Source: a virus (lineage: Duplodnaviria > Caudoviricetes). Taken from it: a stretch of DNA of 53,777 bases. The stretch covers positions 1 through 53,777 of the IMG/VR virus record IMGVR_UViG_3300036851_000252. The stretch is one strand, 5' to 3'. The translations under genes were made by a program, and so were the position numbers. Below the pieces are notes generated by a model that saw nothing but the letters and a program-made list of their open reading frames with translations, had not been told where the DNA came from and did no database searches. Below, piece by piece: positions 21,177 to 47,482 of the stretch (the stretch's first letter is position 1; every line of letters begins with the position of its first letter).

Positions 21177-21334
21177 TTTCCGTTGCGTAGAATAGAGATA
21201 CATCGTCTGTAAAACGAGTGCCCTAAAAAGGCGTGGGGGTTCGAGTCCCTCCTTCCCAACCAATTTATACTTTTTGGGAAGTGGCGAAATGGTAGACGCG
21301 CTAAAATATCCTCTAGTCGACTTTTTCTCGGAAA
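21177..21334 (+). ncRNA. Y-RNA-like element 1, enclosing a circularly permuted tRNA-Tyr(GTA)
   Basis: Shared scaffold; internal order is anticodon arm, V arm, T arm, acceptor 3'+ACCA, linker, acceptor 5', D arm. Confidence 0.8.
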
Positions 21335-21337
21335 TTT

Positions 21338-21423
21338 GGGAGTGCGGTGAAGTTGGAGAGTCACGGCAGACTGTAAATCTGTTGCCTCGCGCTGAATAGG
21401 TTCGAATCCTATCACTCCCACCA
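21338..21423 (+). tRNA. tRNA-Tyr(GTA)
   Basis: GCAGA-CTGTAAA-TCTGT, long V arm, CCA. Confidence 0.93.
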
Positions 21424-21563
21424 ATTCTGTTGCGTAGTGTAAAGATACTTCACATCAACTGCTTGCCGTGTGGTTCGAATCCCACTATCTCCACTAGACG
21501 GAGATATAGTTCAGAGGTAGAACAGCAGTCTCAAAAAGACTTTATGCGACTTTTTCTCAGAAT
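21424..21563 (+). ncRNA. Y-RNA-like element 2 (YrlA-like permuted tRNA domain)
   Basis: Scaffold; ACTGCT/AGCAGT stem, T arm GTTCGAATC, closed acceptor TATCTCC-actagac-GGAGATA, D arm GTTC-agaggta-GAAC. Confidence 0.82.
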
Positions 21564-21576
21564 GTTTTTAAGGTTT

Positions 21577-21710
21577 GATCTCGTTGCGTAGTTAAGAGGT
21601 ACTTCATTGGTTCAATTCCAATATTTCCCGCAGAGCACATTACTAAGTGTGCTGTATGGGAAATACGCCGACTGGTCGGCATATTCTTTTAACGACTTTA
21701 TCTCGAGACC
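21577..21710 (+). ncRNA. Y-RNA-like element 3 (permuted tRNA domain, extended acceptor hairpin)
   Basis: Scaffold; ATTGG-TTCAATT-CCAAT, ATTTCCC...GGGAAAT, GCCGA-ctgg-TCGGC. Confidence 0.8.
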
Positions 21711-21716
21711 ATGTTT

Positions 21717-21790
21717 TCATCCTGCTGCGTAGGCCCGAGTTACTTCAATTGAAATGAAAAAACACTCAATGCCGATTTTGTCTCAGGTGA
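21717..21790 (+). ncRNA. Y-RNA-like element 4 (short)
   Basis: CCTG-CTGCGTAG-GCCCGAG-TTACTTCA...CTCAATGC-CGAT-TTTGTCT-CAGG. Confidence 0.7.
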
Positions 21791-21793
21791 TTT

Positions 21794-21870
21794 GCGGGTA
21801 GATCGGTCAAGGGGCGACCAGCTGGCTTCCACCCAGATAATGCGGAGTTCGACTCTCCCTACCCGCTCCA
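21794..21870 (+). tRNA. tRNA-Gly(TCC)
   Basis: GCGGGTA/TACCCGC-TCCA; loop CTTCCAC. Confidence 0.85.
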
Positions 21871-21878
21871 AATTTTAT

Positions 21879-21955
21879 GCTCATGTCATCTAATGGCCTA
21901 GGACACCTGATTCTCAGTCAGGGAAATGAGGGTTCGACTCCCTTCATGAGCGCCA
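21879..21955 (+). tRNA. tRNA-Glu(CTC)
   Basis: CCTGA-TTCTCAG-TCAGG, CCA. Confidence 0.9.
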
Positions 21956-22039
21956 ATTTAATCGGATCAAGAGCGAGACAGCTTGAATAAGTTCTTGATC
22001 GTATCGTGCTGAGCTGGGATAGTGAACGACGATTACATT

Positions 22040-22124
22040 GCCCCTGTGGTGGAATTGGTAGACACAGCAGACTTAAAATCTGTCGCCTTCGGGCATATCG
22101 GTTCGATTCCGGTCAGGGGCACCA
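22040..22124 (+). tRNA. tRNA-Leu(TAA)
   Basis: GCAGA-CTTAAAA-TCTGT, V arm, CCA. Confidence 0.93.
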
Positions 22125-22195
22125 AGAATCTTGCTTAGACGTTGCGTGGTATGTTAAGTGGAAATGTCAGAGAGTTGAGAAACTCTTACGAATTT

Positions 22196-22318
22196 TGTTT
22201 TGTTGCGTAGATAACAGATACTTCGGTAAATTCGCTTCGGCGATAGTAGGTTCAAATCCTATAAACACGGTAGTGATACTGTGCTTGTAAATCCTGTTTT
22301 CAACTTTGTCTCAAAACA
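22196..22318 (+). ncRNA. Y-RNA-like element 5 (retains a T arm)
   Basis: TGTTTTG/CAAAACA closing stem; scaffold; TCGC-ttcg-GCGA, GTAGG-TTCAAAT-CCTAT. Confidence 0.75.
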
Positions 22319-22322
22319 TTAT

Positions 22323-22397
22323 TGATCCTTCGTCTAACTGGCAGGACGGGAGACTTTGAATCTCTTAACCTAGGTTCGAACCCTAGAGGATCAGCCA
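22323..22397 (+). tRNA. tRNA-Gln(TTG)
   Basis: GGAGA-CTTTGAA-TCTCT, CCA. Confidence 0.92.
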
Positions 22398-22404
22398 AGA
22401 TTTT

Positions 22405-22482
22405 GTCGGTGTACTTTAACTGGCCTAGAACACCTGGTTTTCACCCAGGGAAATGTGGGTTCGAATCCCATCACCGACGCCA
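22405..22482 (+). tRNA. tRNA-Glu(TTC)
   Basis: CCTGG-TTTTCAC-CCAGG, CCA. Confidence 0.9.
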
Positions 22483-22592
22483 AATTCGTGGGAGGCGATC
22501 AAGGAAGTATTGGAGGCGTCATCCTCTGAGAAAACCGCCCCCGAGCTATGACGGCTCTCGGTAGCAGCAAGCTACCAACGATTGATTACTGT

Positions 22593-22672
22593 AGCGGAGT
22601 AGAGTAGAAGCAAAAACTCGTCAGCCTCATAAGCTGAAGGTCGTGGTCGAGCATTTCCCACCTCCGCAACCA
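22593..22672 (+). tRNA. Atypical tRNA-Met(CAT), initiator-like acceptor
   Basis: 1-72 mismatch, TCAGC-CTCATAA-GCTGA, ACCA; D-loop lacks GG, enlarged non-canonical T-loop. Confidence 0.65.
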
Positions 22673-22824
22673 ATTTGAGGAGAACTGTTTGAATAACAAA
22701 GATCTGGATAAGAAGTTGATTGAAGAGCAGAAGCGCAGAGATCAACAGAAGTACTGGGAAGACCAGAAATTGGAACAAGCTCGTCGTGAACGAGATTCAC
22801 AATCAATTGCAGGATTAGTATAAT

Positions 22825-22898
22825 ACCCACGCCGAGGGATGTCGGCACTGTTCTTGCGAAGGATGGTTGCGTAAGCTCGACTCTTACCGTGGGTGCCA
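22825..22898 (+). tRNA. Atypical tRNA-Arg(GCG)-like
   Basis: ACCCACG/CGTGGGT-GCCA; loop TTGCGAA; T-loop CTCGACT; D stem abuts the acceptor stem. Confidence 0.6.
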
Positions 22899-23067
22899 AA
22901 TAAACAGTGTCATGAAGTGGGTAACCGTCCGATATCAAAACCGCAAGGTTGAGAGTGATTCCTTCTGCCCGTAAGGGAAGTGAAGTCGAGTAGACGGCCT
23001 ATATGGTCACTTAATCGAACAATGCCGGATGATACGCGTGTTTATCCACGTGCCGGCTCCAATTTAT

Positions 23068-23145
23068 GTCCACGTAGTTCAGATGGATTAGAATGCAACG
23101 CTACGAACGTTGAGGTCGGGGGTTCAAGTCCCTCCGTGGATGCCA
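23068..23145 (+). tRNA. tRNA-Arg(ACG)
   Basis: CAACG-CTACGAA-CGTTG, CCA. Confidence 0.93.
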
Positions 23146-23163
23146 AATAGTAAATACTGTAAT

Positions 23164-23649
23164 ATGAAGCTCATGGAATTAGCCAATAACAAAGAAATCA
23201 TTCTAGTCTCAGGCAACCTTTGCTCTGGTAAGGGTCATTATTGTTCAACTGCATACCCAGAGTATAGCCAGATCGGCGTTTCGTCGATCGTTAGAGCATT
23301 GGCTAAGATGAACACCCGCAGTGAGCTTTCTACAACGAAAGATTTTGATACACGAATTGCTCAAAGATTGATTCAATTCATCGAGAAAGATTCCTACAAC
23401 AAGATCATTGTTGATGGTATTCGTCAGCTTTCAATCATGCAAGCTCTGCAGAACCATTTTGGTGACCAAATTAAAGACATCATTTGGTTAGATGTTCCTG
23501 ATGATGTTGCCAAAGAACGTTTCGCCAATCGTGCAGCAGCAAAAGACGATCAAACGTACGACGATGCTCGTGCGGGTGATAGAAACTTGGGTATTGAAGA
23601 TGTTGAGAGCTACATTCGTGCTAATCATAAGGTAGTTCCCAACAGTTGA
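23164..23649 (+). CDS. P-loop NMP-kinase-like protein
   Basis: SGNLCSGKG, IIVDGIR, WLDVP...ERF; ATG 7 nt after TAAATA. Confidence 0.8.
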   Translation: MKLMELANNKEIILVSGNLCSGKGHYCSTAYPEYSQIGVSSIVRALAKMNTRSELSTTKDFDTRIAQRLIQFIEKDSYNKIIVDGIRQLSIMQALQNHFGDQIKDIIWLDVPDDVAKERFANRAAAKDDQTYDDARAGDRNLGIEDVESYIRANHKVVPNS

Positions 23650-23680
23650 TTATAGACCGGACCTTATTGATTATGGACCG

Positions 23681-24541
23681 ATGTATAATGCAGTATTAAA
23701 ATCACAAATAGATCAATCAGTCAATTTCGTAGAAGAGGAACTCGTAGGATTCATAGAATCACGATACGTTCGCAAGGTAGATGATTATTTCATTTGCTAC
23801 CTATCTTCACAAACCGGATGCAATCGTGGATGCAAGTTCTGTCACTTGACAGCAACCAAGCAAATGGCATTCATGGATTCAGATTACCAATCGTTTATTG
23901 GACAAGCATGTCAGGTGTTCCGCCATTACAAACGCGAGAAGCCAGCAAAGTATGTTCATTACAACTTCATGGCTCGTGGCGAAGCTTTAGCAAACAAATT
24001 CATCATCAATGAAGCAGACAAGATTTTGGGAACTCTTGGTGAGCTTGCAATCAAAGACAAGTTGTATCCAAAGTTCAACATCTCAACGATCATGCCAAAG
24101 ACATTGAAGGTATCTCTTACAGACATCTTCAAGATGGTCACACCAACGATGTACTATTCGTTGTATAGTGTTGACGATGCATTTAGAAAAGAATGGTTAC
24201 CAGCAGCAATGCCAGTAGACACAGCTCTGGATCTTTTGATGGATTATCAGTACATGTCAAAGAAGATCATTAAGATCCACTTTGCCTTCATCAAAGGCCA
24301 GAACGATTCAAAAGAAAGTTTGCTTGAAATGTGCAATGAACTCAATAAGAGAAAGTTGCTTTGTGAGTTCAACCTCGTTCGATACAATCCATTCTCACCA
24401 ATTCAAGGTGAAGAATCTGATGATCAAACGATCTATGAGAACTTGGAGTTGCTGAGAGAGCACTTCAAAGGCGATGTACAAATGATTCCACGTGTCGGAT
24501 TCGATGTAAAAGCATCGTGCGGCATGTTTGTTGATAAGTGA
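23681..24541 (+). CDS. RlmN/Cfr-family radical-SAM RNA methyltransferase
   Basis: CYLSSQTGCNRGCKFC, FMARGEAL, NLVRYNP, VKASCG. Confidence 0.88.
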   Translation: MYNAVLKSQIDQSVNFVEEELVGFIESRYVRKVDDYFICYLSSQTGCNRGCKFCHLTATKQMAFMDSDYQSFIGQACQVFRHYKREKPAKYVHYNFMARGEALANKFIINEADKILGTLGELAIKDKLYPKFNISTIMPKTLKVSLTDIFKMVTPTMYYSLYSVDDAFRKEWLPAAMPVDTALDLLMDYQYMSKKIIKIHFAFIKGQNDSKESLLEMCNELNKRKLLCEFNLVRYNPFSPIQGEESDDQTIYENLELLREHFKGDVQMIPRVGFDVKASCGMFVDK

Positions 24542-24544
24542 TAT

Positions 24545-24620
24545 GCAACCGTAGCTCAGCTGGTAGAGCACTGGCCTGAAGAGCCGGGTGTCACTGGTTC
24601 AATTCCAGTCGGTTGCACCA
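24545..24620 (+). tRNA. tRNA-Phe(GAA)
   Basis: CTGGC-CTGAAGA-GCCGG, CCA. Confidence 0.92.
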
Positions 24621-24627
24621 AGATTAT

Positions 24628-24703
24628 GCTGTCGTAGCTGAGATGGTATTAGCGCCACGCTGAAAACGTGGAGACGTTCGTTCGATACGACCCGACGGCA
24701 CCA
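24628..24703 (+). tRNA. tRNA-Phe(GAA), second copy
   Basis: CCACG-CTGAAAA-CGTGG, CCA. Confidence 0.88.
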
Positions 24704-24885
24704 AGAATTGAGAGTAGGCCTACCGCTATATAAATTTTACGGCTGTGGTAAAGCGGTGTAATGGGTTCAAAGTCCAACCTCATGTTTTGTATTCACCGAA
24801 GCCACGTCTCGAATGAGAGTGACAAACGCGAAGCTAGAATCAACTAGTGATAGTATAGGACGCTATACAGTACGGTGTTAATTTT

Positions 24886-24960
24886 TGGTCCTTCGTCTAA
24901 TTGGTAGGACGCAACGCTCTGAACGTTGTAACCTAGGTTCGAACCCTAGAGGACCAGCCA
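24886..24960 (+). tRNA. tRNA-Gln(CTG)
   Basis: CAACG-CTCTGAA-CGTTG, CCA. Confidence 0.92.
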
Positions 24961-25687
24961 AATTTGTCTCGTGTTGGCATAACGTGAGGAACTGGTATAC
25001 TTAGCACCGGCATCGAAAGATGGACGCGCGCCATGTGTGGGTTCGACTCCCATCGAGCAAATGAATTTTGATTGTGGTTAGACAAGCTCGGCCGAGCGAG
25101 TGAGATGGGTTCGAAACCGGATCGCTTTAGTGAGTAAGCAGAAAGCTTGTGCAATTCAAGCACCTTACGTCGTCTAATACTTCAGGAACAAGGATGGGCT
25201 CTTGTCACAATCAATTAAATTGTGTATTGTAGGGTAATGAGAACTCTACGGTATTTGATACTACACAAAGATACATCAGGATTCTGGTGGTTGTTTGGCA
25301 TCTATCGACCAACTTTCTTCATCCATCTAACACATGGATGGAACAATACACGAAAGGTTGGTTGTTATCGTGATGCACAAAGTTTAGTATTGAAGAAGTT
25401 TGATTTTGAATTTGTTGTCGGTTGGAAAGGATAAAGGACACAGAAGCCAGCATTGGTGTCCGCTCACCAGAAATGGTCTCTCCCGGTGGGAGGTAAGCAG
25501 CACTGGACTGATTGATTATAGTGCACGATATGCCCTTGAGAAGTGTCGGGAGACACTGCGAGAGAACTGCACACCCGCCGCACGCGAAGCATTTGCGGTC
25601 CTCACCTAGAGTGGGATAAATGTAAGAGGGTAGGGTTTTGGTGGGGGAGCTTGCTCCCCCATCGTTTTTATAGGATAATCACTTTTT

Positions 25688-25766
25688 GGCTCACGGGACT
25701 GCTTAGTGTGGTCGCTCGCCTGTCACGCGAGATAACAGATGGGAGCATAACCCATGTGGGTCGCCA
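25688..25766 (+). tRNA. Atypical tRNA-Asp(GTC)
   Basis: CTCGC-CTGTCAC-GCGAG, GCCA end; T-loop AGCATAA instead of TTCRANY. Confidence 0.7.
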
Positions 25767-25781
25767 AATTTGTAAGGAATA

Positions 25782-26054
25782 ATGATGTCGGCACCAAAAG
25801 TTAGACCACCTTGGATTGAATATCTGTTGTACGATATTCGTACCGATTCCGATCCAGCAATCAACAAATACATTGCATTGTTCGAGAAGGTGTTCGAGAA
25901 GCGAAAAGCAAATCAGTTAACGGAAGATCAAATCCGTGGAATCCTCACACCAATTAGAGATTTCATTGTAGAAGATGCTCGGGCAAAGCATCACGCCTAC
26001 AAATTGATCACGGCGACGATCGAATATATCATCGATCCAGAGAAGAAAATTTAA
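25782..26054 (+). CDS. Hypothetical protein
   Basis: TAAGGA RBS. Confidence 0.7.
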   Translation: MMSAPKVRPPWIEYLLYDIRTDSDPAINKYIALFEKVFEKRKANQLTEDQIRGILTPIRDFIVEDARAKHHAYKLITATIEYIIDPEKKI

Positions 26055-26058
26055 CCAA

Positions 26059-26133
26059 GCAGGTATAATTCAGTGGTAGAATGTCTCGTTGCCAACGAGA
26101 ATGTCGCGAGTTCGAGCCTCGCTACCTGCTCCA
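26059..26133 (+). tRNA. tRNA-Gly(GCC)
   Basis: TCTCG-TTGCCAA-CGAGA, TCCA. Confidence 0.92.
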
Positions 26134-26148
26134 ATTGAGATATGTACA

Positions 26149-26652
26149 ATGAGCAACGTATACAGAGGAACTGGCTATATCCAGTATGATCCTCATCGTG
26201 GAAGCATGAAAAGCCGCACACAAGGATGGTGCATTGTCAATGTCGATCGCGAATTGACACGCTATTATCGTTGGTGGCTCGATAAGGAGATCTTGAATCC
26301 ACTTGGCCTTCCAAAGGGAGGTCTCGATCAACCAGCTTGGGATGCACACATCTCAATCGTTCGCGGTGAGAGATTATATCCTGACAAGGAACATCTATGG
26401 AAGAAGTATCAGGGTAAGAAGGTTGATTTCTGGTACGAGCACCCCTTTTGGTACGATATCGGCCGTGATAATAAGCAGCCTGGATATTTTTTTACAGTTG
26501 ACGTACAGTCAGCAGACTTAATGAATATTCGCCTCGAGTTGGGGTTGAAGGCTGATTGGAATTTCCACTTGACGTTCGGCAGAACGTATCAGTACGCAAA
26601 GGATCCTAACTACGGCGCGACTTGGATGCAAAAAGAGGCAATGATCACATGA
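26149..26652 (+). CDS. 2H phosphoesterase-family protein
   Basis: Two H-x-S/T motifs: AHISIV and FHLTFG. Confidence 0.7.
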   Translation: MSNVYRGTGYIQYDPHRGSMKSRTQGWCIVNVDRELTRYYRWWLDKEILNPLGLPKGGLDQPAWDAHISIVRGERLYPDKEHLWKKYQGKKVDFWYEHPFWYDIGRDNKQPGYFFTVDVQSADLMNIRLELGLKADWNFHLTFGRTYQYAKDPNYGATWMQKEAMIT

Positions 26653-32759: not shown

Positions 32760-33380
32760 ATGTTGGCATATCCATCCATCCCACGTTGGCAAGAAGGTCG
32801 AGGTTTCGGCAAGCCTTGCATTGCCTTCTACAAATACGACGGATCGAATATTCGATTTGAATGGTCACCAAAGCGTATGTGGCATAAGTTTGGTTCCAGA
32901 ACTCAATTGCTCGACCGCAGCCATCCAATTCTTGGAGAGTCAGTTGACCTCTTCTTGGATGAGTATCGTGACATGTCAAAGATCATTCCTGAAGTGGTGT
33001 GTGAATACTACAAACAGAAAGTAGAGCGCATCGTTGCGTTTGCTGAGTTTTGGGGAGCAAATAGTTTTGCTGGAACCCACGAACCAACAGATCCTAAACT
33101 TCTAACACTGTTCGATGTGTCAGTGTACAAGAAGGGATTTCTTCCCGCACGAACATTCATGAAGCTGTTTCCTAAGAAAGAATACAACTGGGCTGCCCGA
33201 GTTGTTTATGAAGGAAATATGAATCAACCTTTTATTGACGCTGTTCGTCATGGACAATATGAGCTCGATGAGGGTGTCATTTGTAAGGGTCTAGATTGGT
33301 CAGCAAAGATCAAGACCTTTGATTACTTGAATAGGTTGAAGAATAAATATGGAGACGAGTGGGAAAAGTATGGAGAGTGA
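32760..33380 (+). CDS. Small RNA-ligase-like nucleotidyltransferase
   Basis: KYDGSN (motif I), FAEFWG, LFDV, EGVICK, KIKT. Confidence 0.8.
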   Translation: MLAYPSIPRWQEGRGFGKPCIAFYKYDGSNIRFEWSPKRMWHKFGSRTQLLDRSHPILGESVDLFLDEYRDMSKIIPEVVCEYYKQKVERIVAFAEFWGANSFAGTHEPTDPKLLTLFDVSVYKKGFLPARTFMKLFPKKEYNWAARVVYEGNMNQPFIDAVRHGQYELDEGVICKGLDWSAKIKTFDYLNRLKNKYGDEWEKYGE

Positions 33381-39564: not shown

Positions 39565-40250
39565 GTATGTTTGATGTTGTACTACCGCTGAAAGAACAAG
39601 CTATGCTGACAACACTGCTCACGCAGCCACATCGATATTACCACAATATCAATCATATCAATGATTTGTTGATTGAGTTGGACGATTGGGCTCCCCGCGC
39701 TGGTTACGCTGACAACGTCAAGAGACTTGTGACATACGGGATTTGGTATCATGATGCCATTTACAACACGTACAGTGCGCCAGGCTCAAACGAGCGGTTG
39801 AGTGCTCGTCTGTTTGAGCAACAGCATCCTGAGTTCGAACCATTCGAGCTCAATTGCGTAGTTGAGATGATTGAGGCTACTGCAAAACATACATCTCAAC
39901 AGGATATGCGCGAAGGCAGCAAAGATCGTTACATCGACATTCATAATGCTGTGATGCTGGATTGTGATCTTGCTGGATTTGGGCATTCGTGGGAAGTCTA
40001 CGAAATGAATGGTGAAAACATTCGCCAAGAGTACTACAAAACCTCCGATGCAGATTTCTACGCCGGCCGTTACCAGTTTTTGATGAAAATGCATCAACGA
40101 ATGAAGTTGTTCGGTTCGATTTACTACACTCGCCATTTCCAGGCGAGGTATGATGCTCAGTCGAAAGAGAATATTGAAAACGACATCATCATAATCGAAG
40201 ACATTTTAGAGATTCCTGCTGAGAAGTCGATTCTGACATGGAAACCGTAA
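39561..40250 (+). CDS. HD-superfamily phosphohydrolase
   Basis: RYYHNINHI, WYHDAIY, NERLSA, LDCDLA, IRQEY. Confidence 0.88.
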   Translation: MSMFDVVLPLKEQAMLTTLLTQPHRYYHNINHINDLLIELDDWAPRAGYADNVKRLVTYGIWYHDAIYNTYSAPGSNERLSARLFEQQHPEFEPFELNCVVEMIEATAKHTSQQDMREGSKDRYIDIHNAVMLDCDLAGFGHSWEVYEMNGENIRQEYYKTSDADFYAGRYQFLMKMHQRMKLFGSIYYTRHFQARYDAQSKENIENDIIIIEDILEIPAEKSILTWKP

Positions 40251-42147: not shown

Positions 42148-43347
42148 ATGAAGAAAACATACATGAATATCAAAAGCAAGCTAATTGCAAAAATCAACAA
42201 CCTCTATCTTGCAATTAGAAATTACTTCGAACAGCGTTGGGTCAAGCGTCTCGTTCAAGAGCTAACATCAGACATTACAGACGATGCTGCTCGCAGAATT
42301 TACATACAGCTGCTGAACAATAACATCGAACAATTGAGAATTGATAGTTATGGTTCGACCACACATATCATTTCAAACCGTCGTGATCGAATTGCATTTT
42401 TTGCAAAGACCATCAAGAAGGCAATTGAAGTTACACTCCCAATAAGAGGGCTTGTTGGTATTCAACCAATGTCTGGTCCGGTCGGTCTTGTATATGCATT
42501 GCGCTATCGTGAAACAGATCCAACCAACGAATCACCTGTTAAGCACATGACATTGGATGTTATGAGTGAAGCAGTGGCTGCTGATACCCGTAATCTTCAA
42601 GCCTCATATACGATTGAGGCGATGCAAGACATGAAAACACTTCATGGCATTGATGTTGAAAAGGAACTATCAGACGCTCTTGGTATCGAATTCGGTATTG
42701 AAGCTCAAAATGAAATTCTCAAAGATGTAGTACAGTTGGCGGAGAAATCAGGAAATGTAGTTGAGTTGAAACCAAACAGAGTATTGTTTTTAGCTGAAGA
42801 TGCATTGCATATTGCACTTGCAAGAGTCGCAAATGAAATCGCTCGTAAGACACGACGCGGTACTGGCAATTTCATTGTAACAAGTCCTTTGGGTGTTACC
42901 ATACTGCAAACAACACGAGGTCCATGGCAATTCAGACCTGTGAAACAATCTGGCACCTATGTTGGTGGTGTAACCTATGTTGGTGACATTATTGGTGTCA
43001 CACTGGCAGCTGAGCAGGTAATATACAAGGTATATTCGTCACTTTCATCATTGTCCCTGTTTCCTGATAATGCAGGTGTTGATTTCTTAGTTGGATTCAA
43101 AGGTAACAACGGTGAAGTTGATTCTGGTTACTTTTGGGCACCATACATCACTGCAATGACGCGTGGTGTTATGGTAAATCCTAATACATTCCAACCACAG
43201 GTTGGTTTCTACACAAGATATGGTAAAGTATTCACAAAGCCTACTGAAGACCCTGCTTCAAAGGTTTCAGCAAACTATTATGGATTAGTTAAAGTAATTT
43301 CAACCGAATCATCGCAGGCTGAAGAGACTACGGTCAACCCAGCTTGA
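42148..43347 (+). CDS. T4 gp23/gp24-like capsid protein paralog
   Basis: GIQPMSGPVGLVYALR, YTIEAMQD, IARKTRRGTGNF, YFWAPY, TFQPQVGFYTRYG. Confidence 0.88.
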   Translation: MKKTYMNIKSKLIAKINNLYLAIRNYFEQRWVKRLVQELTSDITDDAARRIYIQLLNNNIEQLRIDSYGSTTHIISNRRDRIAFFAKTIKKAIEVTLPIRGLVGIQPMSGPVGLVYALRYRETDPTNESPVKHMTLDVMSEAVAADTRNLQASYTIEAMQDMKTLHGIDVEKELSDALGIEFGIEAQNEILKDVVQLAEKSGNVVELKPNRVLFLAEDALHIALARVANEIARKTRRGTGNFIVTSPLGVTILQTTRGPWQFRPVKQSGTYVGGVTYVGDIIGVTLAAEQVIYKVYSSLSSLSLFPDNAGVDFLVGFKGNNGEVDSGYFWAPYITAMTRGVMVNPNTFQPQVGFYTRYGKVFTKPTEDPASKVSANYYGLVKVISTESSQAEETTVNPA

Positions 43348-43651
43348 GGAAGTTCGCGACATGCCGGAGACCTGTAGGAGACGATTGTGCAAGCATTCAT
43401 TGATTTTCTAAATCATGGTCTAACGAAAGACGAACGTTTTGCGTTAGGCGTATGTTGCTTCTTAGTGATATACGCTATACTGTGGCATTTAGATAACCAA
43501 ATGAATAAGCACAATCGTCGTTAGTACTACTGATACGAGTAAGCGGCATGCAACACAAACAGACCATAGACGAAGTCTCAGTTAGATGGTCGGGTAGTGG
43601 CTTAGAGGAATGATGATTTAGAAACAGAATCGCGGCTATGAGTTGAATATT

Positions 43652-43984
43652 ATGGAAAGAAAATACAGAGGTTGTAAAATAGAGGCTTTGTTCGATCAGC
43701 CAAGAGGTTGGCGTGCTGCAAAGTGGTCTGAACTTGAATGTGGACAATCTATTGTTGTGGAATCTAAAGATGGATGTGTTCACACACATACGTGTTATCG
43801 AGCTCCCAAGCCAAAGAACATGTCACCGCTTCAGTACTACAAGAAGTACAAGGTAGTGCCTGATCGATATGAATATGTGCATAATGGACGGTATTACTGC
43901 AATCCAGCACATTGCTCGCAATCATGGAAGAACAAGAAGGAACGGGATAAGCATTTGAATGGTGCATACTCCCTGTTAGATTAA
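43652..43984 (+). CDS. Hypothetical protein
   Basis: ORF packed within the operon. Confidence 0.6.
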   Translation: MERKYRGCKIEALFDQPRGWRAAKWSELECGQSIVVESKDGCVHTHTCYRAPKPKNMSPLQYYKKYKVVPDRYEYVHNGRYYCNPAHCSQSWKNKKERDKHLNGAYSLLD

Positions 43985-43985
43985 T

Positions 43986-44222
43986 ATGAGAAAAATTGAA
44001 CTGGCAAGGGATGATCTGGGTGCAAAGGTGTTAGCCGATGGAAAGCCAATTACTATTGGTTGGACCAAAGAACTTATTGAAGATCTTGGTGGTGTGTGCA
44101 ACCTTGATGTTGGCTTAGAGATAGCTTCAGTAATGGAAGAAGTCATGAAGCAAAATACAGATCTCTCTGACGATGAACGGGCAGAAGTAATGCGCCAATT
44201 TTTGCATTTGGAGAAAGAGTAA
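43986..44222 (+). CDS. Small protein with a gp23-like segment
   Basis: WTKELIEDL....LDV..EI aligns without gaps to YTIEAMQDM....IDV..EL of the capsid paralog. Confidence 0.65.
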   Translation: MRKIELARDDLGAKVLADGKPITIGWTKELIEDLGGVCNLDVGLEIASVMEEVMKQNTDLSDDERAEVMRQFLHLEKE

Positions 44223-44413
44223 TGTGTGCAATTAGCGTAATACACGACTATGGTCGCAGCATTCCAGATACTGAGTGGAATCGCGAGTCACTTGAAGCAT
44301 TCAAGAAGCTCGTGGATGAAGCAAAAAAGTTCGATGAAGCAACAAAGCAACCACATTGTGAAGATCCAGAAAAGTTGAAGTGGGTTGAAGTGGTAGAGAG
44401 CAAACTTGAATGA
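44222..44413 (+). CDS. Hypothetical protein
   Basis: MCAIS...D..T.QPHCEDPEK. Confidence 0.65.
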   Translation: MCAISVIHDYGRSIPDTEWNRESLEAFKKLVDEAKKFDEATKQPHCEDPEKLKWVEVVESKLE

Positions 44414-44612
44414 ACAAGCCATGGATTGTGTTTGAAGTTCATCCATATGGAAAGGACAAAAACGACAAAGTCCATAGCAAGCATGAATTTGAAAGTGACG
44501 CTATTGATACAGCGTAGAAATTGAACAGCAACACTCAACCAGAAGGTCCGCAGTATATTGTTGCTCAACAACGCAACCGCGATAAATAACAGTTTAACAC
44601 AAGGAGACGACG

Positions 44613-45308
44613 ATGAAACTTAATATCGAAATCAGAGCCGCAGAAGGCGGAGACGATAGCAAGCTTTTCGTTGGCGACTTAGCAAGTGCGTACATCAGAA
44701 TGGCTAACAAAGCTGGCTGAAAGTGTACCGTTCTTGAGAAGAAGCCAAGCGAGAAAGGCTTCTTTCAAATAGTCCTTCAAATCGAAGGCAACAATCTACA
44801 ACAACTGCACCATGAAGCTGGTGGACACCGTATACAACGCGTGCCTCCAACAGAACGGCATGGACGTGTGCAAACAAGCACAGTTACTGTTGCTGTGATT
44901 GATCCAAACAAGAACGTAGAGCATCCAAGTTTGAAACGTGATGAAAACGATTTCAAACTTGAGTGGTACTCAGGTTCTGGTTCGGGTGGTCAACACAGAA
45001 ATAAACATCAGAACAGTTGTAGAATAACCCATATTCCAACAGGAGTAGTGAAAACCGCACAAACGAGAAATCGCCAGTCCAGTGAGAAAGAGGCAAGGCA
45101 ATCCTTGTTAACCCACTTGGATAGCATGTACCATCAAGCTAAGCGAACCACATTTGATTCAGACCGTAAGGGTCAAGTAGGGTCAGGCATGCGTGGAGAT
45201 AAGATCCGCACATACCGTTTCCAAGATGATCGTGTTGAAGACCATCAGACAGGAAGAGGAGCTTCGTGTAAGAAGGTAATGGGTGGCAATTTTGAGAATT
45301 TGTGGTAA
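44613..45308 (+). CDS. RF1-like peptide chain release factor lacking domain 1, in-frame TGA at 44718-44720 (readthrough or pseudogene)
   Basis: AAGGAG RBS; IEIRAAEGGDDS...AG*K...EAGGHRIQRVPPTE..GRVQTS, GSGGQHRNK, KIRTY, all in one frame. Confidence 0.85.
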
Positions 45309-45328
45309 TCAATGACGAGGATAAAAAT

Positions 45329-45559
45329 ATGCCGCGCAAATACGTATACACAGATCAGAAATCAGGCAAACAGTTGTTTGAAACAATTGTTGCCAACTAC
45401 GTGTCATCAGAAGATGTAGACAAGCAGATGTTTGAAAAGACAAAGCGTGATCCACGTTTGGATCCGTTCATCGAACGTAAAATCACTGTCGTTGGTGAGA
45501 CAGAAGTTAAACAAGGCGGTCGGTTCGACAAGAACAAGAAGACTAAAGGATTTGTATGA
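45329..45559 (+). CDS. Hypothetical protein
   Basis: GAGGA RBS. Confidence 0.65.
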   Translation: MPRKYVYTDQKSGKQLFETIVANYVSSEDVDKQMFEKTKRDPRLDPFIERKITVVGETEVKQGGRFDKNKKTKGFV

Positions 45560-45759
45560 AAGAAATTCCAATTTCAGCTGCAAAAGATATTGCTCACAAA
45601 TATGGCTATGATCAAATTGTAGTTATTGGTCGCAAGACTGGTGACAATGGTGGTGAACATGTCACAACGTACGGTGTAGATAAAGAGCACTGTGGCGTTG
45701 CTGCTCAGATTGGTGATTTTCTGAAATACAAAGTCATGGGATGGAAAAAGGAAAGCTAA
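45556..45759 (+). CDS. Hypothetical protein
   Basis: ATGA coupling. Confidence 0.65.
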   Translation: MKEIPISAAKDIAHKYGYDQIVVIGRKTGDNGGEHVTTYGVDKEHCGVAAQIGDFLKYKVMGWKKES

Positions 45760-46121
45760 TGTATATTTCACGTGCTCTTATAATCAAAACTCCTTGGACA
45801 GATCTTATCCTGAAGGGTGAGAAGACATGGGAGATCCGTGGCAGCAAAACAAATATTCGTGGTACGATCGGTATTATTGAATCAGGTACTGGTACGATCG
45901 TTGGAGCAGTAGATCTGATCGATTGTATCGGTCCATTGTCTGTTGAAGAGATGAATAAACACGGAAAGAAACATCAGCTAATAACACCAATGTACGCTGA
46001 CGAGATGCCATATCCTAAAACATATGCTTGGGTTGTTGACGGTCCCGTTAAGTTTAAGAAGCCCGTCCCGTATAACCATCCCATGGGCGCGGTGATCTGG
46101 GTTAATTTGGATAACACATGA
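45759..46121 (+). CDS. ASCH-domain protein
   Basis: PWTDLILKGEKTWEIR, YAWV. Confidence 0.88.
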   Translation: MYISRALIIKTPWTDLILKGEKTWEIRGSKTNIRGTIGIIESGTGTIVGAVDLIDCIGPLSVEEMNKHGKKHQLITPMYADEMPYPKTYAWVVDGPVKFKKPVPYNHPMGAVIWVNLDNT

Positions 46122-46354
46122 CTGAACCATCACATGATCTTGTTGGCCTAATGTTCGGTGGCACTAGCGATGAAGCTGAAGTAGTTCGGTGGTGCCGCAA
46201 TTGCGGCGCTGTTGTAATCGACCTTGAATATGATGGTCGTACCGCAGCAGGTGCCATCATGAAGATGCGTGTACCAACACTGACACAGGATACACACTGT
46301 CGTAGTCCAGATAAGTTGGAACATTACAGACAAACTGGAAAGAACCGTAAATAA
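46118..46354 (+). CDS. Hypothetical protein
   Basis: VVRWCRNCGAVV. Confidence 0.65.
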   Translation: MTEPSHDLVGLMFGGTSDEAEVVRWCRNCGAVVIDLEYDGRTAAGAIMKMRVPTLTQDTHCRSPDKLEHYRQTGKNRK

Positions 46355-46357
46355 TTT

Positions 46358-46430
46358 GCCCCTATAACTCAGTGGCCAGAGTACGTCGCTTCGAACGACG
46401 GAGTCGGGAGTTCAAGTCTCTCTAGGGGTG
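46358..46430 (+). tRNA. tRNA-Arg(TCG), CCA not encoded
   Basis: CGTCG-CTTCGAA-CGACG; canonical D and T arms. Confidence 0.88.
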
Positions 46431-46449
46431 CTAACAAGGAGAATGATAG

Positions 46450-46767
46450 ATGGGTTGGATTGGTGTAGACTTAGATGGCACACTAGCTGTGTATGATAGT
46501 TGGAAAGGTGGAGAGATTGGTGAGCCAGTTCCTGCCATGGCGTTTCGAGTCAGAAAATGGTTAGCAGATGGAAAAGAGGTTCGCATCATGACAGCTCGTG
46601 CTTCAGTTCCTGAATTGATTCCGGCTATTGAAACATGGTGCGAGACGCACTTCGGCAAGAAGCTTCCTGTTACGAATGTCAAAGACTTTTCAATGATTGA
46701 ACTTTGGGACGATCGTGCTATCCAGGTTGAGCCAAATACTGGACGTAGGATGGATGGAAAAGACTAA
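46450..46767 (+). CDS. Small HAD-family phosphatase (PNKP 3'-phosphatase-like)
   Basis: VDLDGTLA, MTAR, K, WDDRA. Confidence 0.82.
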   Translation: MGWIGVDLDGTLAVYDSWKGGEIGEPVPAMAFRVRKWLADGKEVRIMTARASVPELIPAIETWCETHFGKKLPVTNVKDFSMIELWDDRAIQVEPNTGRRMDGKD

Positions 46768-46823
46768 ATAGTGATGAATAAGAGAAACCACGCATTTGTG
46801 GTGGCTTTTTGGGGAACATACTG

Positions 46824-47144
46824 ATGGCAACGAATATCAATCTTACATGGATTAACCCAACCAGCCGCATTAACAACGATCCGTTGAATCCATCAGAATT
46901 CACGACAACTATAGAACACATGGATCCAGGTGAAGGTAACTGGACTGTTATCGCATCAGATATCGACAGCAGTGTTACAGCATATGCATTTTTGAATGCT
47001 GCTACTGGACTTCACAAATTCCGCATATATGCGGTAGATATCAGTGATGTGCGTGTGAGTCATTTTGCTATGGTCAATGCTACAATTCATGAACCACGTC
47101 CATCATCAAGAGCCGCAGTAAGCGCGACAATTGTTACTACGTAA
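46824..47144 (+). CDS. Fibronectin-III-like small late protein
   Basis: LTWINP...FRIYAVD beta-sandwich pattern; TAAATA at 46765. Confidence 0.6.
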   Translation: MATNINLTWINPTSRINNDPLNPSEFTTTIEHMDPGEGNWTVIASDIDSSVTAYAFLNAATGLHKFRIYAVDISDVRVSHFAMVNATIHEPRPSSRAAVSATIVTT

Positions 47145-47158
47145 CCCTATTAAAATTG

Positions 47159-47186
47159 TTGCCATCTTAAACTAACCATATATACT
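47159..47186 (+). promoter_or_regulatory. Sigma70-like promoter for the Y-RNA-like/Ro60 unit
   Basis: TTGCCA-16nt-TATACT; predicted start coincides with element 6. Confidence 0.6.
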
Positions 47187-47191
47187 ATGGC

Positions 47192-47266
47192 TTGCTGTTG
47201 CGTAGGGAAGGGTTACTTCATACTTTTTGTATAAAACAAGCTCTCTTTTCGACTTTGACTCAGCAA
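47192..47266 (+). ncRNA. Y-RNA-like element 6 (short)
   Basis: TTGCTG-TTGCGTAG-GGAAGGG-TTACTTCA...CTCTTTT-CGAC-TTTGACT-CAGCAA. Confidence 0.8.
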
Positions 47267-47400
47267 CTTATTTTAGGCGCCGAAAGGCTAGGGAATTACA
47301 ACCCCGAATCAACCAAGTTGTAAGACTAGATGTGACGATCAACTGTGAAGTTCTGCAGTCAGAACGGAGTTGGTTACATCGAACGAATATACAAATATAC

Positions 47401-47482
47401 GTCCGTTGCGTAGTGAACAGATACTTCATATTAAAGCCTCACGGCTTTGCCAAAAAAGACTGTTTGCGAATTTGACTCGGCC
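47401..47482 (+). ncRNA. Y-RNA-like element 7 (short)
   Basis: GTCCG-TTGCGTAG-TGAACAG-ATACTTCA...CTGTTTG-CGAA-TTTGACT-CGGCC. Confidence 0.8.

What the first reader, a model, noticed from the sequence alone, without database searches (positions are those of the whole stretch)
21177..47482. Seven-copy covarying ncRNA scaffold linked to phage Ro60: candidate new Y-RNA family with swappable modules
Seen: copies at 21177, 21424, 21577, 21717, 22196, 47192 and 47401 share [stem]G-YTGCGTA-G[N7]-NTACWTC ... [N7']C-RAH-TTTNNCT-C[stem']. Both stems differ in every copy yet stay complementary, e.g. GTGTAAAG/CTTTATGC, GTTAAGAG/CTTTTAAC, GTGAACAG/CTGTTTGC, GGGAAGGG/CTCTTTTC, with outer stems TTTCCG/CGGAAA, ATTCTG/CAGAAT, TGTTTTG/CAAAACA, TTGCTG/CAGCAA. 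Two copies lie between a promoter and the Ro60 gene. The inserts vary: a full permuted tRNA, T-acceptor-D domains, a T arm, or one hairpin. Known: bacterial YrlA RNAs combine a Ro-binding stem (GNCGAAN0-1G) with a tRNA-like domain whose acceptor stem is closed. Inference: a divergent, expanded Y-RNA repertoire (GCGUAG variant plus an extra UACUUC motif) giving one Ro60 several effector or decoy modules.
Basis: partly seen in the sequence, partly recalled or inferred. Interest (0 to 1): 0.92.

Follow-up and report, generated by a model that had tools for sequence, protein, structure and literature searches.

The report
Phage Y RNAs inside tRNA array
Seven small structured RNAs in this phage fragment share one conserved stem and look like partners of the phage's Ro60 protein (Y RNAs), a known kind of RNA seen here in unusually many copies, mostly packed between tRNA genes.

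Summary
Seven + strand elements (21177-21334, 21424-21563, 21578-21709, 21719-21789, 22197-22317, 47192-47266, 47400-47483) share a 5' module (YUGCGUAG-N7-NUACWUC) and a 3' module (C-RAH-UUUNNCU-C). Their two stems covary: the cognate pairing beats all other 5039 permutations.

A covariance model built from them (R1) hits all 16 loci that were fetched only by Ro60 protein similarity. It also hits 7 of 9 named Ro60 phages, including CcrColossus and Bacillus phage G. In two Nocardia genomes it hits only beside TROVE genes.

The elements are therefore Ro60-linked Y RNAs, but not a family apart from what is known. Some R1 members carry the canonical GGCGAAG. Sub-threshold Rfam YrlA matches fall inside R1 hits. 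UUAC fits the published YUAY/UA element.

Less documented features:
- Rfam YrlA never reaches its cut-off on these elements.
- They form arrays of 3-8 copies.
- They abut tRNAs within 0-5 nt, and can lie 26 to more than 90 kb from Ro60.
- The heads range from a complete circularly permuted tRNA-Tyr mimic with an encoded ACCA (copy 1) to single hairpins.

Ro60 binding and expression are untested.

The parts
21177..21334 (+). Y-like RNA copy 1. Outer stem 21177-21182 / 21329-21334; UUGCGUAG 21183-21190; inner stem 21190-21197 / 21311-21318; AUACAUC 21198-21204. The head is a circularly permuted, complete class II tRNA-Tyr mimic.
   Evidence: (89.9 bits); ARAGORN after in-silico un-permutation.
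21203..21299 (+). Head of copy 1. Anticodon-like hairpin 21203-21217, with loop CUGUAAA identical to the anticodon loop of the phage's own tRNA-Tyr. V-arm hairpin 21220-21232; T arm 21235-21251; acceptor 3' strand 21252-21258; ACCA 21259-21262; linker 21263-21274; acceptor 5' strand 21275-21281; D arm 21284-21299.
   Evidence: MFE fold. 87 of 96 junction choices give an ARAGORN call, and 36 of the 40 printed are tRNA-Tyr(gta). 25 rotations give tRNA-Tyr(gta), with the anticodon 7 nt 3' of the junction. Weak match to Rfam tmRNA_permuted across acceptor-CCA-linker-acceptor (14 bits).
21424..21563 (+). Y-like RNA copy 2. Scaffold plus a YrlA-type head: anticodon-like stem, T arm, acceptor closed by a 7-nt loop, D arm.
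   Evidence: 92.9 bits. Rfam YrlA local match 21460-21527, model positions 23-85, 24.7 bits against a cut-off of 69.
21578..21709 (+). Y-like RNA copy 3. Scaffold plus T arm, a 7-8 bp acceptor-like stem carrying an extra hairpin, and a GC hairpin in place of the D arm.
   Evidence: 72.6 bits; z = -4.6.
21719..21789 (+). Y-like RNA copy 4 (CUGCGUAG variant). The inner stem has an internal loop. The head is one 4-bp hairpin with a 7-nt loop, whose 5' strand is the UUC of the UACUUC motif.
   Evidence: (43 bits).
22197..22317 (+). Y-like RNA copy 5. Scaffold plus a UUCG hairpin, a T arm and a 7-bp hairpin with a GNRA-type loop.
   Evidence: 82 bits; z = -2.6.
47192..47266 (+). Y-like RNA copy 6. 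Scaffold plus one short hairpin (YrlB-like). It starts a few nt after a promoter-like site.
   Evidence: (62.7 bits).
47400..47483 (+). Y-like RNA copy 7. Scaffold plus one 7-bp hairpin (YrlB-like), 98 nt upstream of the Ro60 start codon.
   Evidence: (59.5 bits).
47581..49140 (+). Ro60 homologue, 519 aa, TROVE plus vWA domains.
   Evidence: Pfam TROVE 3e-21, VWA_2 5e-11. Closest solved structure is Thermus phage phiLo Ro60, 9KOP/9L5Y, E 1e-19 over residues 20-484.
47159..47186 (+). Sigma-70-like promoter match (TTGCCA-16-TATACT) just upstream of copy 6.
   Evidence: Consensus match only; the number of such sites in the region is at chance level.
49151..49170 (+). Terminator-like GC hairpin with a T tail, directly after Ro60.
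   Evidence: 8 pairs, 6 of them GC.
21098..22397 (+). tRNA genes that abut copies 1-5: Val 21098-21172, Tyr 21338-21423, Gly 21794-21870, Gln 22323-22397. Gaps to the Y elements are 4, 3, 0, 3 and 5 nt.
   Evidence: ARAGORN; gap table. The same arrangement is seen in relatives L057, L114, L067 and L111.

Best explanation
The seven elements are phage-encoded Y RNAs, that is, non-coding partners of the phage Ro60 protein. They belong to a divergent, phage-rich branch of the YrlA/YrlB kind.

Structure. In each RNA the 5' and 3' ends pair into a two-tier stem: a 6-bp outer helix, a conserved asymmetric internal loop (UUGC(GUA) opposite (GAC)UUUNNCU), and an 8-bp inner helix followed by UUACUUC. 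This stem is inferred to be the Ro60-binding platform. The distal head is free to vary.
- Copy 1: a complete circularly permuted tRNA-Tyr mimic with anticodon-like loop, V arm and an encoded ACCA.
- Copy 2: a YrlA-type closed tRNA mimic.
- Copies 3 and 5: partial mimics with a T arm.
- Copies 4, 6 and 7: single hairpins, like YrlB.

Synthesis and processing (inferred). Copies 1-5 are made as part of the tRNA-array transcript. They would be released by the RNase P and 3'-end cuts that mature the abutting tRNAs. Copies 6-7 are made with the Ro60 mRNA from a promoter-like site.

Function (inferred). By analogy with Rsr/Y RNA/PNPase complexes, each head would gate the phage Ro60 ring or tether it to a different tRNA-binding host or phage factor. 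This is likely part of RNA quality control or repair, together with the phage Rnl1 and a kinase-like protein.

What is shown and what is inferred. Shown: the structure, its covariation and its co-occurrence with Ro60. Inferred: Ro60 binding, processing and effector recruitment.
For: 1. Real structured RNA.
- Cognate strand pairing is best of 5040 permutations.
- In a MAFFT alignment of 24 elements from 11 sources (the window and 10 loci), 94.6% of cells pair against 60.0 +/- 1.9% shuffled and 40-47% slid. All 14 pairs show compensatory changes.
- In 44 non-training hits, 96.6% pair against 52.3% shuffled (this alignment was fitted to the model).

2. Link to Ro60.
- R1 hits 16 of 16 loci fetched by Ro60 protein only, mostly just upstream on the same strand.
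- Of the 111 loci fetched by the 5' motif, 11 hold Ro60. All 11 have R1 hits, and none of the 91 R1-negative loci holds Ro60.
- Four more R1-positive loci have TROVE elsewhere on the contig.
- Both complete jumbo-phage genomes with R1 hits (2 of 2) have TROVE.
- 7 of 9 named Ro60 phages have 3-8 R1 hits beside Ro60.
- In two Nocardia genomes (8.0 and 7.1 Mb) all R1 hits at E <= 0.001 lie beside TROVE genes.

3. Kinship with YrlA.
- The head of copy 2 aligns to YrlA model positions 23-85.
- YrlA scores 48.2 and 42.3 bits inside R1 hits in Nocardia and CcrColossus.
- Family members carry GGCGAAG, UGCGAAG or GGCGUAG at the 5' motif.
- UUAC sits at nt 22-25 from the first outer-stem base, as does the published YUAY (PMC4201824, section 6).

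4. Processing context. Gaps to tRNAs are 0-5 nt in the window, and relatives show the same arrangement.

5. RNA-repair context. T4-type Rnl1 lies at 12538-13731 and a kinase-like P-loop protein at 23110-23649.
Against: - No expression or binding data exist.
- Rfam YrlA never reaches its 69-bit cut-off in the window, in 18 viral loci, or in five named phage genomes. Rfam metazoan Y_RNA is not listed at E <= 10.
- None of the seven copies carries an exact GNCGAAN0-1G.
- Five copies lie 25-26 kb from Ro60, outside the 4-kb criterion of Chen 2014. In two complete jumbo phages the R1 hits lie more than 90 kb from TROVE.
- R1 finds nothing in the upstream region where the phiLo paper places its Ro60-bound Yrl1 and Yrl2. 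It gives only two weak partial hits (14.6 and 12.8 bits) downstream of that Ro60.
- No R1 hit lies beside Ro60 in Vibrio phage pv27, and there is none in halovirus HGTV-1.
- Which conserved motif contacts Ro60 is unresolved. Infernal aligns the terminal stem of YrlA to the inner stem of R1, whereas motif similarity points to UUGCGUAG.
- Elements for alignment A2 were chosen with a script that required complementarity, so the counts on A2 are somewhat favoured.
Confidence: 0.8

Rival explanations
1. The elements are structured spacers or degenerate tRNA-derived elements of phage tRNA arrays, for example processing punctuation or decayed tRNA dimers. On this view they have no functional tie to Ro60 and merely occur in the same large phages.
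For: Five of the seven sit in the tRNA array, 0-14 nt from neighbouring genes and 25-26 kb from Ro60. In complete genomes G001 and G007 all hits lie in tRNA regions more than 90 kb from TROVE. The heads are tRNA-derived.
Against: The conserved part is the non-tRNA scaffold. Hairpin-only copies lie directly upstream of Ro60 here and in relatives. 16 of 16 Ro60-fetched loci have hits. In about 15 Mb of Nocardia sequence the hits lie only beside TROVE. Arrays fill the gaps next to Ro60 in seven named phages.
Confidence: 0.07
2. Copies 6 and 7 are chiefly a cis-acting leader of the Ro60 mRNA. Ro60 would bind its own 5' UTR to autoregulate, and no stable trans-acting RNAs would be made.
For: Both lie between a promoter-like site and the Ro60 start codon, with a terminator only after Ro60. 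The same layout is seen in L002, L116 and others.
Against: The same scaffold occurs 25 kb away among tRNAs, and more than 90 kb away in complete genomes. In M. smegmatis, Y RNAs upstream of rsr are processed from a precursor into stable RNAs (passage of PMC4201824). The two roles are not exclusive.
Confidence: 0.05
3. The scaffold is the binding site of another protein that travels with Ro60 in these phages, such as an RNA ligase, a kinase, a nucleotidyltransferase or a host factor. Ro60 itself would not bind it.
For: Binding is untested. RNA-repair genes co-occur in the window. The canonical Ro motif is not exactly present. The most conserved motif, UUACUUC, has no proven Ro60 role.
Against: The one gene consistently adjacent across very different phages and Nocardia is TROVE. 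The stem-loop-stem layout with a CG(A/U)AG-type 5' motif near paired termini matches known Ro60 sites (PMC4201824, section 6).
Confidence: 0.05
4. The elements are a selfish repeat (MITE-like) or a chance repeat with no RNA-level function.
For: Multiple dispersed copies with conserved terminal motifs.
Against: All copies lie on one strand, there are no target-site duplications, and the stems change by compensatory substitutions. Between copies only about 25 nt of the 5' motif are alike by BLAST. The family is conserved across phages whose Ro60 proteins are only 25-54% identical.
Confidence: 0.01

Closest known systems
YrlA (Rfam RF02553), the tRNA-like bacterial and phage Y RNA (Chen et al. 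2014, PMC4201824; structure preprint 10.1101/312249)
   Same: - Encoded on the same strand as Ro60.
- The termini pair into a stem with a conserved CG(A/U)AG-type 5' motif and a YUAY/UA element about 22-25 nt in.
- The head has T and D arms and a closed acceptor; copy 2 aligns to model positions 23-85.
- Sub-threshold YrlA hits coincide with R1 hits.
   Different: - It never reaches the Rfam cut-off (best 24.7 bits in the window).
- The 5' motif is UUGCGUAG, not GNCGAAN0-1G.
- There is an extra conserved outer tier, or a longer inner helix.
- It occurs as 3-8 copies per locus and often inside tRNA arrays far from Ro60.
- Many members keep a 7-nt anticodon-like loop (24 of 68), and copy 1 keeps an encoded ACCA. 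The preprint describes S. Typhimurium YrlA as lacking an anticodon loop and a free CCA end.
YrlB / Yrn2: the second, hairpin-type Y RNAs of Salmonella, M. smegmatis and Deinococcus (PMC4201824)
   Same: Copies 4, 6 and 7 are the Ro-type stem plus one small hairpin, encoded beside tRNA-like siblings. Copies 6 and 7 lie directly upstream of Ro60.
   Different: No sequence comparison was possible, because no model is held. Here the hairpin-only and tRNA-like forms share one identical scaffold.
Thermus phage phiLo Yrl1/Yrl2 with phiRo60 (PMC12135203)
   Same: Phage Ro60 with adjacent Y-like RNAs. The phiLo Ro60 is the closest solved structure to the window's Ro60.
   Different: Those RNAs were picked by a CGAA motif upstream of the gene. 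R1 finds nothing there (best hit in the upstream gap 3.4 bits, E 8.6), but gives two weak partial matches (inner stem + GUACUUC + CGACUUU) just downstream of the phiLo Ro60.
Metazoan Y RNAs (Rfam RF00019)
   Same: Terminal stem with a conserved, bulged Ro60 site and a variable distal loop; several paralogues per genome.
   Different: No Rfam match at E <= 10. Metazoan Y RNAs have no tRNA-like head.
M. smegmatis YrlA, and permuted tRNA or two-piece tmRNA genes
   Same: Copy 1 has a 7-bp acceptor stem followed by ACCA, a linker and the 5' acceptor strand. This is the layout that RNase P cleaves in M. smegmatis YrlA (passage of PMC4201824). It also gives a weak tmRNA_permuted match.
   Different: Copy 1 additionally keeps an anticodon arm and a class II V arm, so that it un-permutes to a full tRNA-Tyr. 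Cleavage was not tested.

Membership tests
YrlA-type Y RNA (Chen 2014 criteria / Rfam RF02553) | Encoded within about 4 kb of a Ro60 (TROVE) gene on the same strand | tested here: inconclusive
   Met for copies 6 and 7, which lie 98-389 nt upstream on the same strand. Not met for copies 1-5, which are on the same strand but 25.3-26.4 kb upstream.
YrlA-type Y RNA (Chen 2014 criteria / Rfam RF02553) | GNCGAAN0-1G motif near the 5' end | tested here: not met
   All seven copies have (U/C)UGCGUAG, which matches at N, C, G, A and G but has U at two fixed positions. Other members of the same CM family carry GGCGAAG (L004:2635-2703), UGCGAAG or GGCGUAG at that place.
YrlA-type Y RNA (Chen 2014 criteria / Rfam RF02553) | Score at or above the Rfam gathering cut-off (69 bits) | tested here: not met
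   Best score in the window is 24.7 bits (copy 2) and 15.8 bits (copy 1). There are no cut-off hits in 18 related loci or in five named phage genomes.
YrlA-type Y RNA (Chen 2014 criteria / Rfam RF02553) | tRNA-like domain with T arm, D arm and acceptor-like stem | tested here: met
   Met by copies 1 and 2. Copies 3 and 5 have a T arm only. Copies 4, 6 and 7 have none and resemble YrlB.
YrlA-type Y RNA (Chen 2014 criteria / Rfam RF02553) | Conserved YUAY / UA element about nt 22-25, after the Ro-site stem | tested here: met
   (A/U/G)UAC lies at nt 22-25 counted from the first outer-stem base in all seven copies. UUACUUC is the best conserved block across the 68 aligned elements. The equivalence with the published element is inferred from position, not shown.
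Y RNA in general | 5' and 3' ends pair into a stem that carries the Ro60 site | tested here: met
   Two covarying helices: 14 of 14 pairs show compensatory change.
Y RNA in general | Bound and stabilised by Ro60 | not testable with these tools
   No tool here predicts RNA-protein complexes, and no RNA run holds the locus.
Metazoan Y_RNA (RF00019) | Match to the Rfam model | tested here: not met
   Not listed at E <= 10 over 21000-22700 and 47100-47600.
Ro60 / Rsr protein | TROVE (HEAT-repeat ring) plus vWA domain | tested here: met
   Pfam TROVE 76.5 bits, VWA_2 43.5 bits; phiLo Ro60 structures at E 1e-19.

The most novel reading that the evidence does not exclude
Large phages carry a library of Ro60-docked, circularly permuted tRNA mimics, made and cut out together with the phage's own tRNAs. 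Many heads keep an anticodon-like loop; 9 of 24 detected loops read GUN (Asn, Tyr, His type). Copy 1 could be opened by RNase P and 3' trimming into a two-piece tRNA-Tyr mimic with a free CCA end. The Ro60 particle would use these heads either as decoys or sensors for host tRNA-targeting nucleases and modification enzymes, or as guides for a tRNA surveillance and repair platform working with the phage Rnl1 and kinase. Copy 1 would also be a living example of the proposed origin of Y RNAs from dimeric tRNA transcripts.
Probability: 0.15. Interest if true: 0.85.

Novelty: new variant of a known kind. Interest (0 to 1): 0.5.

Why it matters
What Ro60 and Y RNAs do in bacteria and phages is still poorly understood, and the effector that reads the tRNA-like head of YrlA is unknown.

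- The curated Rfam model misses a large, phage-rich branch of these RNAs.
- Phage Ro60 genes come with arrays of 3-8 Y RNAs on one conserved scaffold.
- These RNAs are interleaved with tRNA genes.
- Some heads are complete permuted tRNAs.

The R1-type elements occur in cultured phage-host pairs: CcrColossus with Caulobacter, RHph_Y65 with Rhizobium, and Streptomyces, Gordonia and crAss001 phages. Binding, processing and knock-out tests are therefore directly feasible. The finding also bears on the proposal that Y RNAs arose from tRNA dimers.

Tried and rejected
- Extra copies. TTGCGTAG at 39854 and 41296 and the 3' motif at 24959 were rejected because they lack the partner motifs and give no R1 hit.
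- DNA relatives. blastn of the Ro60 region against named phages found no match.
- Selection script. My first script for 3' partners (threshold 11 of 14 pairs) gave many false partners among the chance-fetched loci. Only elements with the conserved 3' motif were kept for alignment. That choice was by eye, and 44 and then 24 of the 93 rows were used.
- First MAFFT alignment. The 44-sequence alignment (A1) misaligned the 3' modules of short or variant elements and was dropped.
- Folding energies. MFE z-scores are weak for the short copies (-0.1 to -1.0), so energy alone does not support the fold. Covariation does.
- Un-permutation of other elements. Most ARAGORN calls there place the anticodon at the artificial junction and were discounted. 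Only calls with the anticodon at least 6 nt 3' of the junction were read as intact hairpins.
- Mapping of motifs onto YrlA was left unresolved. Two alignments are possible.
- Sequencing runs. No RNA holder is listed for 20900-22500.
- Complex prediction was not used, because it takes no RNA.
- The Annual Review PMC10870794 is not held.
- Supplements are closed. The supplemental tables of Chen 2014, which list the 22 phages and their coordinates, may already contain some of these loci. I could not see them.
- Print searches. 'y rna / ro60 / bacteriophage / trna-like' and 'trove / phage / trna / y rna' returned no paper describing this scaffold or Y-RNA arrays inside phage tRNA clusters. I read only listings, abstracts and the passages or sections cited.
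- The report uses recounted numbers (7, 8, 6, 4, 3, 4, 4).

Full report
WHAT IS THERE

The window is a 53.8-kb fragment of an uncultured virus record, about 17% complete by the record's estimate. It encodes a T4-type major capsid protein. ARAGORN tRNA genes on the + strand.

- YTGCGTAG occurs 9 times, all on +, against 1.72 expected; 0 of 100 shuffles reach 9.
- Seven of these continue exactly as TGCGTAG-N8-TACWTC.
- Each of the seven is followed, 18-105 nt later, by C[GA]A[ACT]TTTNNCTC. That motif occurs 8 times on + and never on -.
- The two other TTGCGTAG sites lie in ORFs without the further motifs.

STRUCTURE

At fixed offsets from the motifs, each copy forms a 6-bp outer helix and an 8-bp inner helix.
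- Pairing each copy's 5' strands with its own 3' strands gives 87 pairs. Among all 5040 permutations of partners, only the identity reaches that number.
- In a MAFFT alignment of 24 elements from the window and ten related loci, 94.6% of cells pair, against 60.0% shuffled and 40-47% slid. All 14 pairs show compensatory changes.
- Those elements had been picked with a script that required complementarity, so a second set was also used. This set comprises 44 hits of the covariance model R1, none from the training set, in loci fetched by other means. It gives 96.6% paired against 52.3% shuffled. That alignment is fitted to the model.
- MFE folds recover both helices. They often add G-C and U-A pairs between GUAG and CGAC, leaving an asymmetric loop of UUGC opposite UUUNNCU.
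- R1 with filters off finds exactly seven hits in the window (43-93 bits). The next hit scores 11 bits.

LINK TO RO60

The gene at 47581-49140 is a TROVE plus vWA protein. Its nearest solved structure is the Ro60 of Thermus phage phiLo.

Loci fetched by Ro60 protein.
- Sixteen viral loci were fetched by similarity to this protein alone, at 26-54% identity.
- All 16 have R1 hits, mostly within a few hundred nt upstream on the same strand. The weakest is L008, 22 bits.

Loci fetched by the 5' motif.
- A 14-base pattern is mostly matched by chance in a collection of this size, and 111 loci were returned.
- Twenty of them have R1 hits.
- Eleven of the 20 hold Ro60 within the locus.
- Four more have TROVE elsewhere on the contig.
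- Four are fragments, 9-64% complete, without TROVE. One could not be searched.
- None of the 91 R1-negative loci holds Ro60.

Cellular genomes.
- A more specific pattern scan of 185,579 species' genomes gave nine loci.
- In two Nocardia assemblies, arrays of two to three elements sit directly upstream of a Ro60 homologue.
- Across those two whole genomes, every R1 hit at E <= 0.001 is beside a TROVE gene. Only 150 of about 270-300 first-look candidates were scored.

Named phages.
- R1 gives 7 hits in Rhizobium phage RHph_Y65, filling the unannotated gap between a tRNA-Leu gene and TROVE.
- It gives 8 hits in Caulobacter phage CcrColossus, 6 in Bacillus phage G, 4 in Streptomyces phage BRock, 3 in Gordonia phage Rabbitrun and 4 in Xylella phage Usme.
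- It gives 4 hits in crAss001, there downstream of Ro60.
- It gives no hit in the Ro60 loci of Vibrio phage pv27 or halovirus HGTV-1. A whole-record search found two weak hits (28.5 and 23.6 bits) elsewhere in pv27, about 20-26 kb from its Ro60, and none in HGTV-1.
- No ncRNA is annotated at any of these places.

The link is one of co-occurrence, not always of adjacency.
- In the window, five copies lie 25-26 kb from Ro60.
- In two complete jumbo-phage genomes (345 and 360 kb), the 6 and 5 hits lie in tRNA regions more than 90 kb from the single TROVE gene.

RELATION TO KNOWN Y RNAs

Chen et al. 2014 (PMC4201824; abstract, section 6 and passages read) report the following.
- YrlA-like RNAs lie within 4 kb of Ro60 in 254 bacteria and 22 phages.
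- These RNAs carry a GNCGAAN0-1G motif, a conserved YUAY at nt 22-25, and a tRNA-like domain.
- A second, hairpin-type Y RNA exists in each species studied.

A passage of PMC12135203 names mycobacteriophages, CcrColossus and Bacillus phage G among the phages with such RNAs.

Rfam results.
- The Rfam YrlA model does not reach its 69-bit cut-off in the window, in 18 related loci, or in five named phage genomes.
- Its sub-threshold matches nevertheless coincide with R1 hits. Copy 2's head aligns to model positions 23-85 at 24.7 bits. A Nocardia element scores 48.2 bits. A CcrColossus element scores 42.3 bits.

Motif comparison.
- Within the R1 family the 5' motif varies as G-(U/G)-(U/G)-G-(C/U)-G-(U/A)-A-G. 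It includes exact GGCGAAG (L004:2635-2703), UGCGAAG and GGCGUAG. The window's UUGCGUAG is therefore plausibly a variant of the canonical motif.
- (A/U)UAC lies at nt 22-25 from the first outer-stem base, like the published YUAY. Its UA may be the conserved 23UA24 kink seen in the YrlA crystal structure (passage of 10.1101/312249).
- UUACUUC is the best conserved block of the whole family.
- One ambiguity remains. Infernal aligns the terminal stem of YrlA to the inner stem of R1, which would make R1's outer tier an addition. Motif similarity and nucleotide numbering favour the other register.

I therefore file the elements as a divergent branch of the YrlA/YrlB kind, not as a separate family.

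THE HEADS

Copy 2 is a YrlA-type mimic: anticodon-like stem, T arm, acceptor closed by a 7-nt loop, and D arm.

Copy 1 is different.
- After the scaffold come a 4-bp hairpin with the loop CUGUAAA (identical to the anticodon loop of the phage's own tRNA-Tyr), a second hairpin, a T arm, a 7-nt acceptor 3' strand, ACCA, a 12-nt linker, the acceptor 5' strand and a D arm.
- When the two halves are swapped in silico, ARAGORN makes a call for 87 of 96 junction choices. Of the 40 printed, 36 are tRNA-Tyr(gta). The anticodon lies 7 nt 3' of the junction.

Other copies. Copies 3 and 5 keep a T arm plus other hairpins. Copies 4, 6 and 7 keep one hairpin.

Across 68 aligned family members.
- 24 have, directly after UAC, a 4-5-bp stem with a 7-nt loop that has U at loop position 2 and a purine at position 6. 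The stem often starts with the UUC of the motif.
- The middle triplets are GUU in 6, GUA in 2 and GUG in 1, with 15 others.
- Chen 2014 called a stem-loop at this place 'V'. Whether it acts as a variable arm or as an anticodon-arm mimic cannot be decided here.
- Copy 1's layout (acceptor, CCA, spacer, acceptor) fits the published idea that YrlA arose from dimeric tRNA transcripts (passage of 10.1101/312249).

HOW IT PROBABLY WORKS

Shown.
- A conserved, covarying two-tier stem with variable heads.
- Strict co-occurrence with Ro60.
- Tight packing against tRNAs. Gaps are 4, 3, 0, 3 and 5 nt in the window, and relatives show the same arrangement.
- A promoter-like site before copy 6 and a terminator-like hairpin after Ro60.

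Inferred.
- Copies 1-5 are released from the tRNA-array transcript by the enzymes that mature the flanking tRNAs.
- Copies 6-7 are cut from the Ro60 transcript, as reported for M. smegmatis (passage of PMC4201824).
- The stem docks on Ro60.
- The heads recruit or mimic tRNA-binding partners. This would resemble the way Y RNA tethers Rsr to PNPase in Deinococcus and Salmonella, and the way phiLo Yrl RNAs bridge Ro60 and host PNPase in vitro (PMC12135203).
- The window also encodes a T4-type RNA ligase 1, a kinase-like P-loop protein, and weak RNA-ligase and 2H-phosphoesterase matches. This agrees with the RNA-repair setting proposed for phage TROVE proteins (passage of PMC7824862).

AGAINST, AND OPEN POINTS

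- There is no evidence of expression or binding.
- No window copy has an exact canonical motif.
- Rfam membership fails.
- Five copies fail the 4-kb criterion.
- R1 finds nothing in the upstream region where the phiLo paper places its experimentally bound Yrl1 and Yrl2. Two weak partial matches lie downstream of that gene.
- The supplements of Chen 2014 could not be read, so some of these loci may already be listed there.

VERDICT

The finding is a real, strongly supported structured-RNA family and very probably a set of Ro60 partners. It is a variant of a known kind. The parts that look new or under-described are:
- the scaffold that the curated Rfam model misses;
- the large arrays;
- the interleaving with tRNA genes, far from Ro60;
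- heads that are complete permuted tRNAs.

Noticed in passing
window 21500-21629: Rfam calls a 'tRNA' here (30.8 bits, just over the cut-off). It is a chimera of the acceptor 5' strand and D arm of Y copy 2 with the T arm of Y copy 3. In L067, ARAGORN likewise calls a tRNA-Ser inside a Y element (1861-1930). Automatic annotation of such phages may therefore list false tRNAs.
   Followed up: partly
L156 (Thermus phage phiLo, MH673673) 655-712 and 860-902, minus strand: Two R1-like elements (inner stem + GUACUUC + C(G/A)ACUUUCC, with outer stems, but a 5' loop of AGGCC(C)A/U instead of UUGCGUA) lie immediately downstream of the phiLo Ro60 gene on its strand. One overlaps the annotated CDS phiLo_25. 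The published Yrl1 and Yrl2 are described as upstream and were chosen by CGAA motifs. I could not tell whether they are the same sequences.
   Followed up: partly
A2 + A3 alignments (68 family members); window copies 1 and 4: The hairpin right after UAC often has a 7-nt anticodon-like loop. CUGUUAA (Asn-type) recurs in six elements from different loci. GUN triplets (the queuosine-type tRNAs Asn, Tyr, His) make up 9 of 24 detected loops. The rows are related, so this is not an independent count. The window also encodes a FolE2-type GTP cyclohydrolase (9889-10965) and a weak radical-SAM match (23681-24541).
   Followed up: partly
window 12538-13731, 23110-23649, 26089-26652, 32760-33380, 11318-12241: RNA-repair-type genes lie near the tRNA array: T4 RNA ligase 1 (Rnl1, both domains), a kinase-like P-loop protein, a weak 2H-phosphoesterase match, a weak RNA-ligase match, and an ADP-ribosylglycohydrolase.
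   Followed up: no
window 24959-25070: An orphan 3' motif (CAAATTTGTCTC) directly follows tRNA-Gln. About 70 nt further on is an orphan T-arm-like sequence (GGGTTCGACTCCC at about 25039) that is not part of any called tRNA or R1 hit. It may be a decayed tRNA-like or Y-like element.
   Followed up: no
window 22593-22669: Rfam tRNA match of 37.4 bits in the permissive search. It is not called by ARAGORN and is absent from the gathering-mode list of the whole window.
   Followed up: no
L003, L004, L006, L041, L108, L116, L148 and others: Phage Ro60 genes are very often embedded in or next to tRNA gene arrays, as in Streptomyces phage BRock, Rhizobium phage RHph_Y65 and Bacillus phage G. Small 'hypothetical protein' CDSs annotated upstream of Ro60 in Gordonia phage Rabbitrun (gp93, gp94) overlap R1 hits and may be mis-annotations.
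   Followed up: partly
L135/L141 (330-kb contig of a MAG labelled Pseudobdellovibrionaceae): Strong R1 hits (87.9, 70.3 and 60.2 bits) next to tRNAs on a 330-kb contig. This could be a jumbo phage binned into a bacterial MAG. No Ro60 lies within the two 8-kb loci, and the whole contig was not searched.
   Followed up: no
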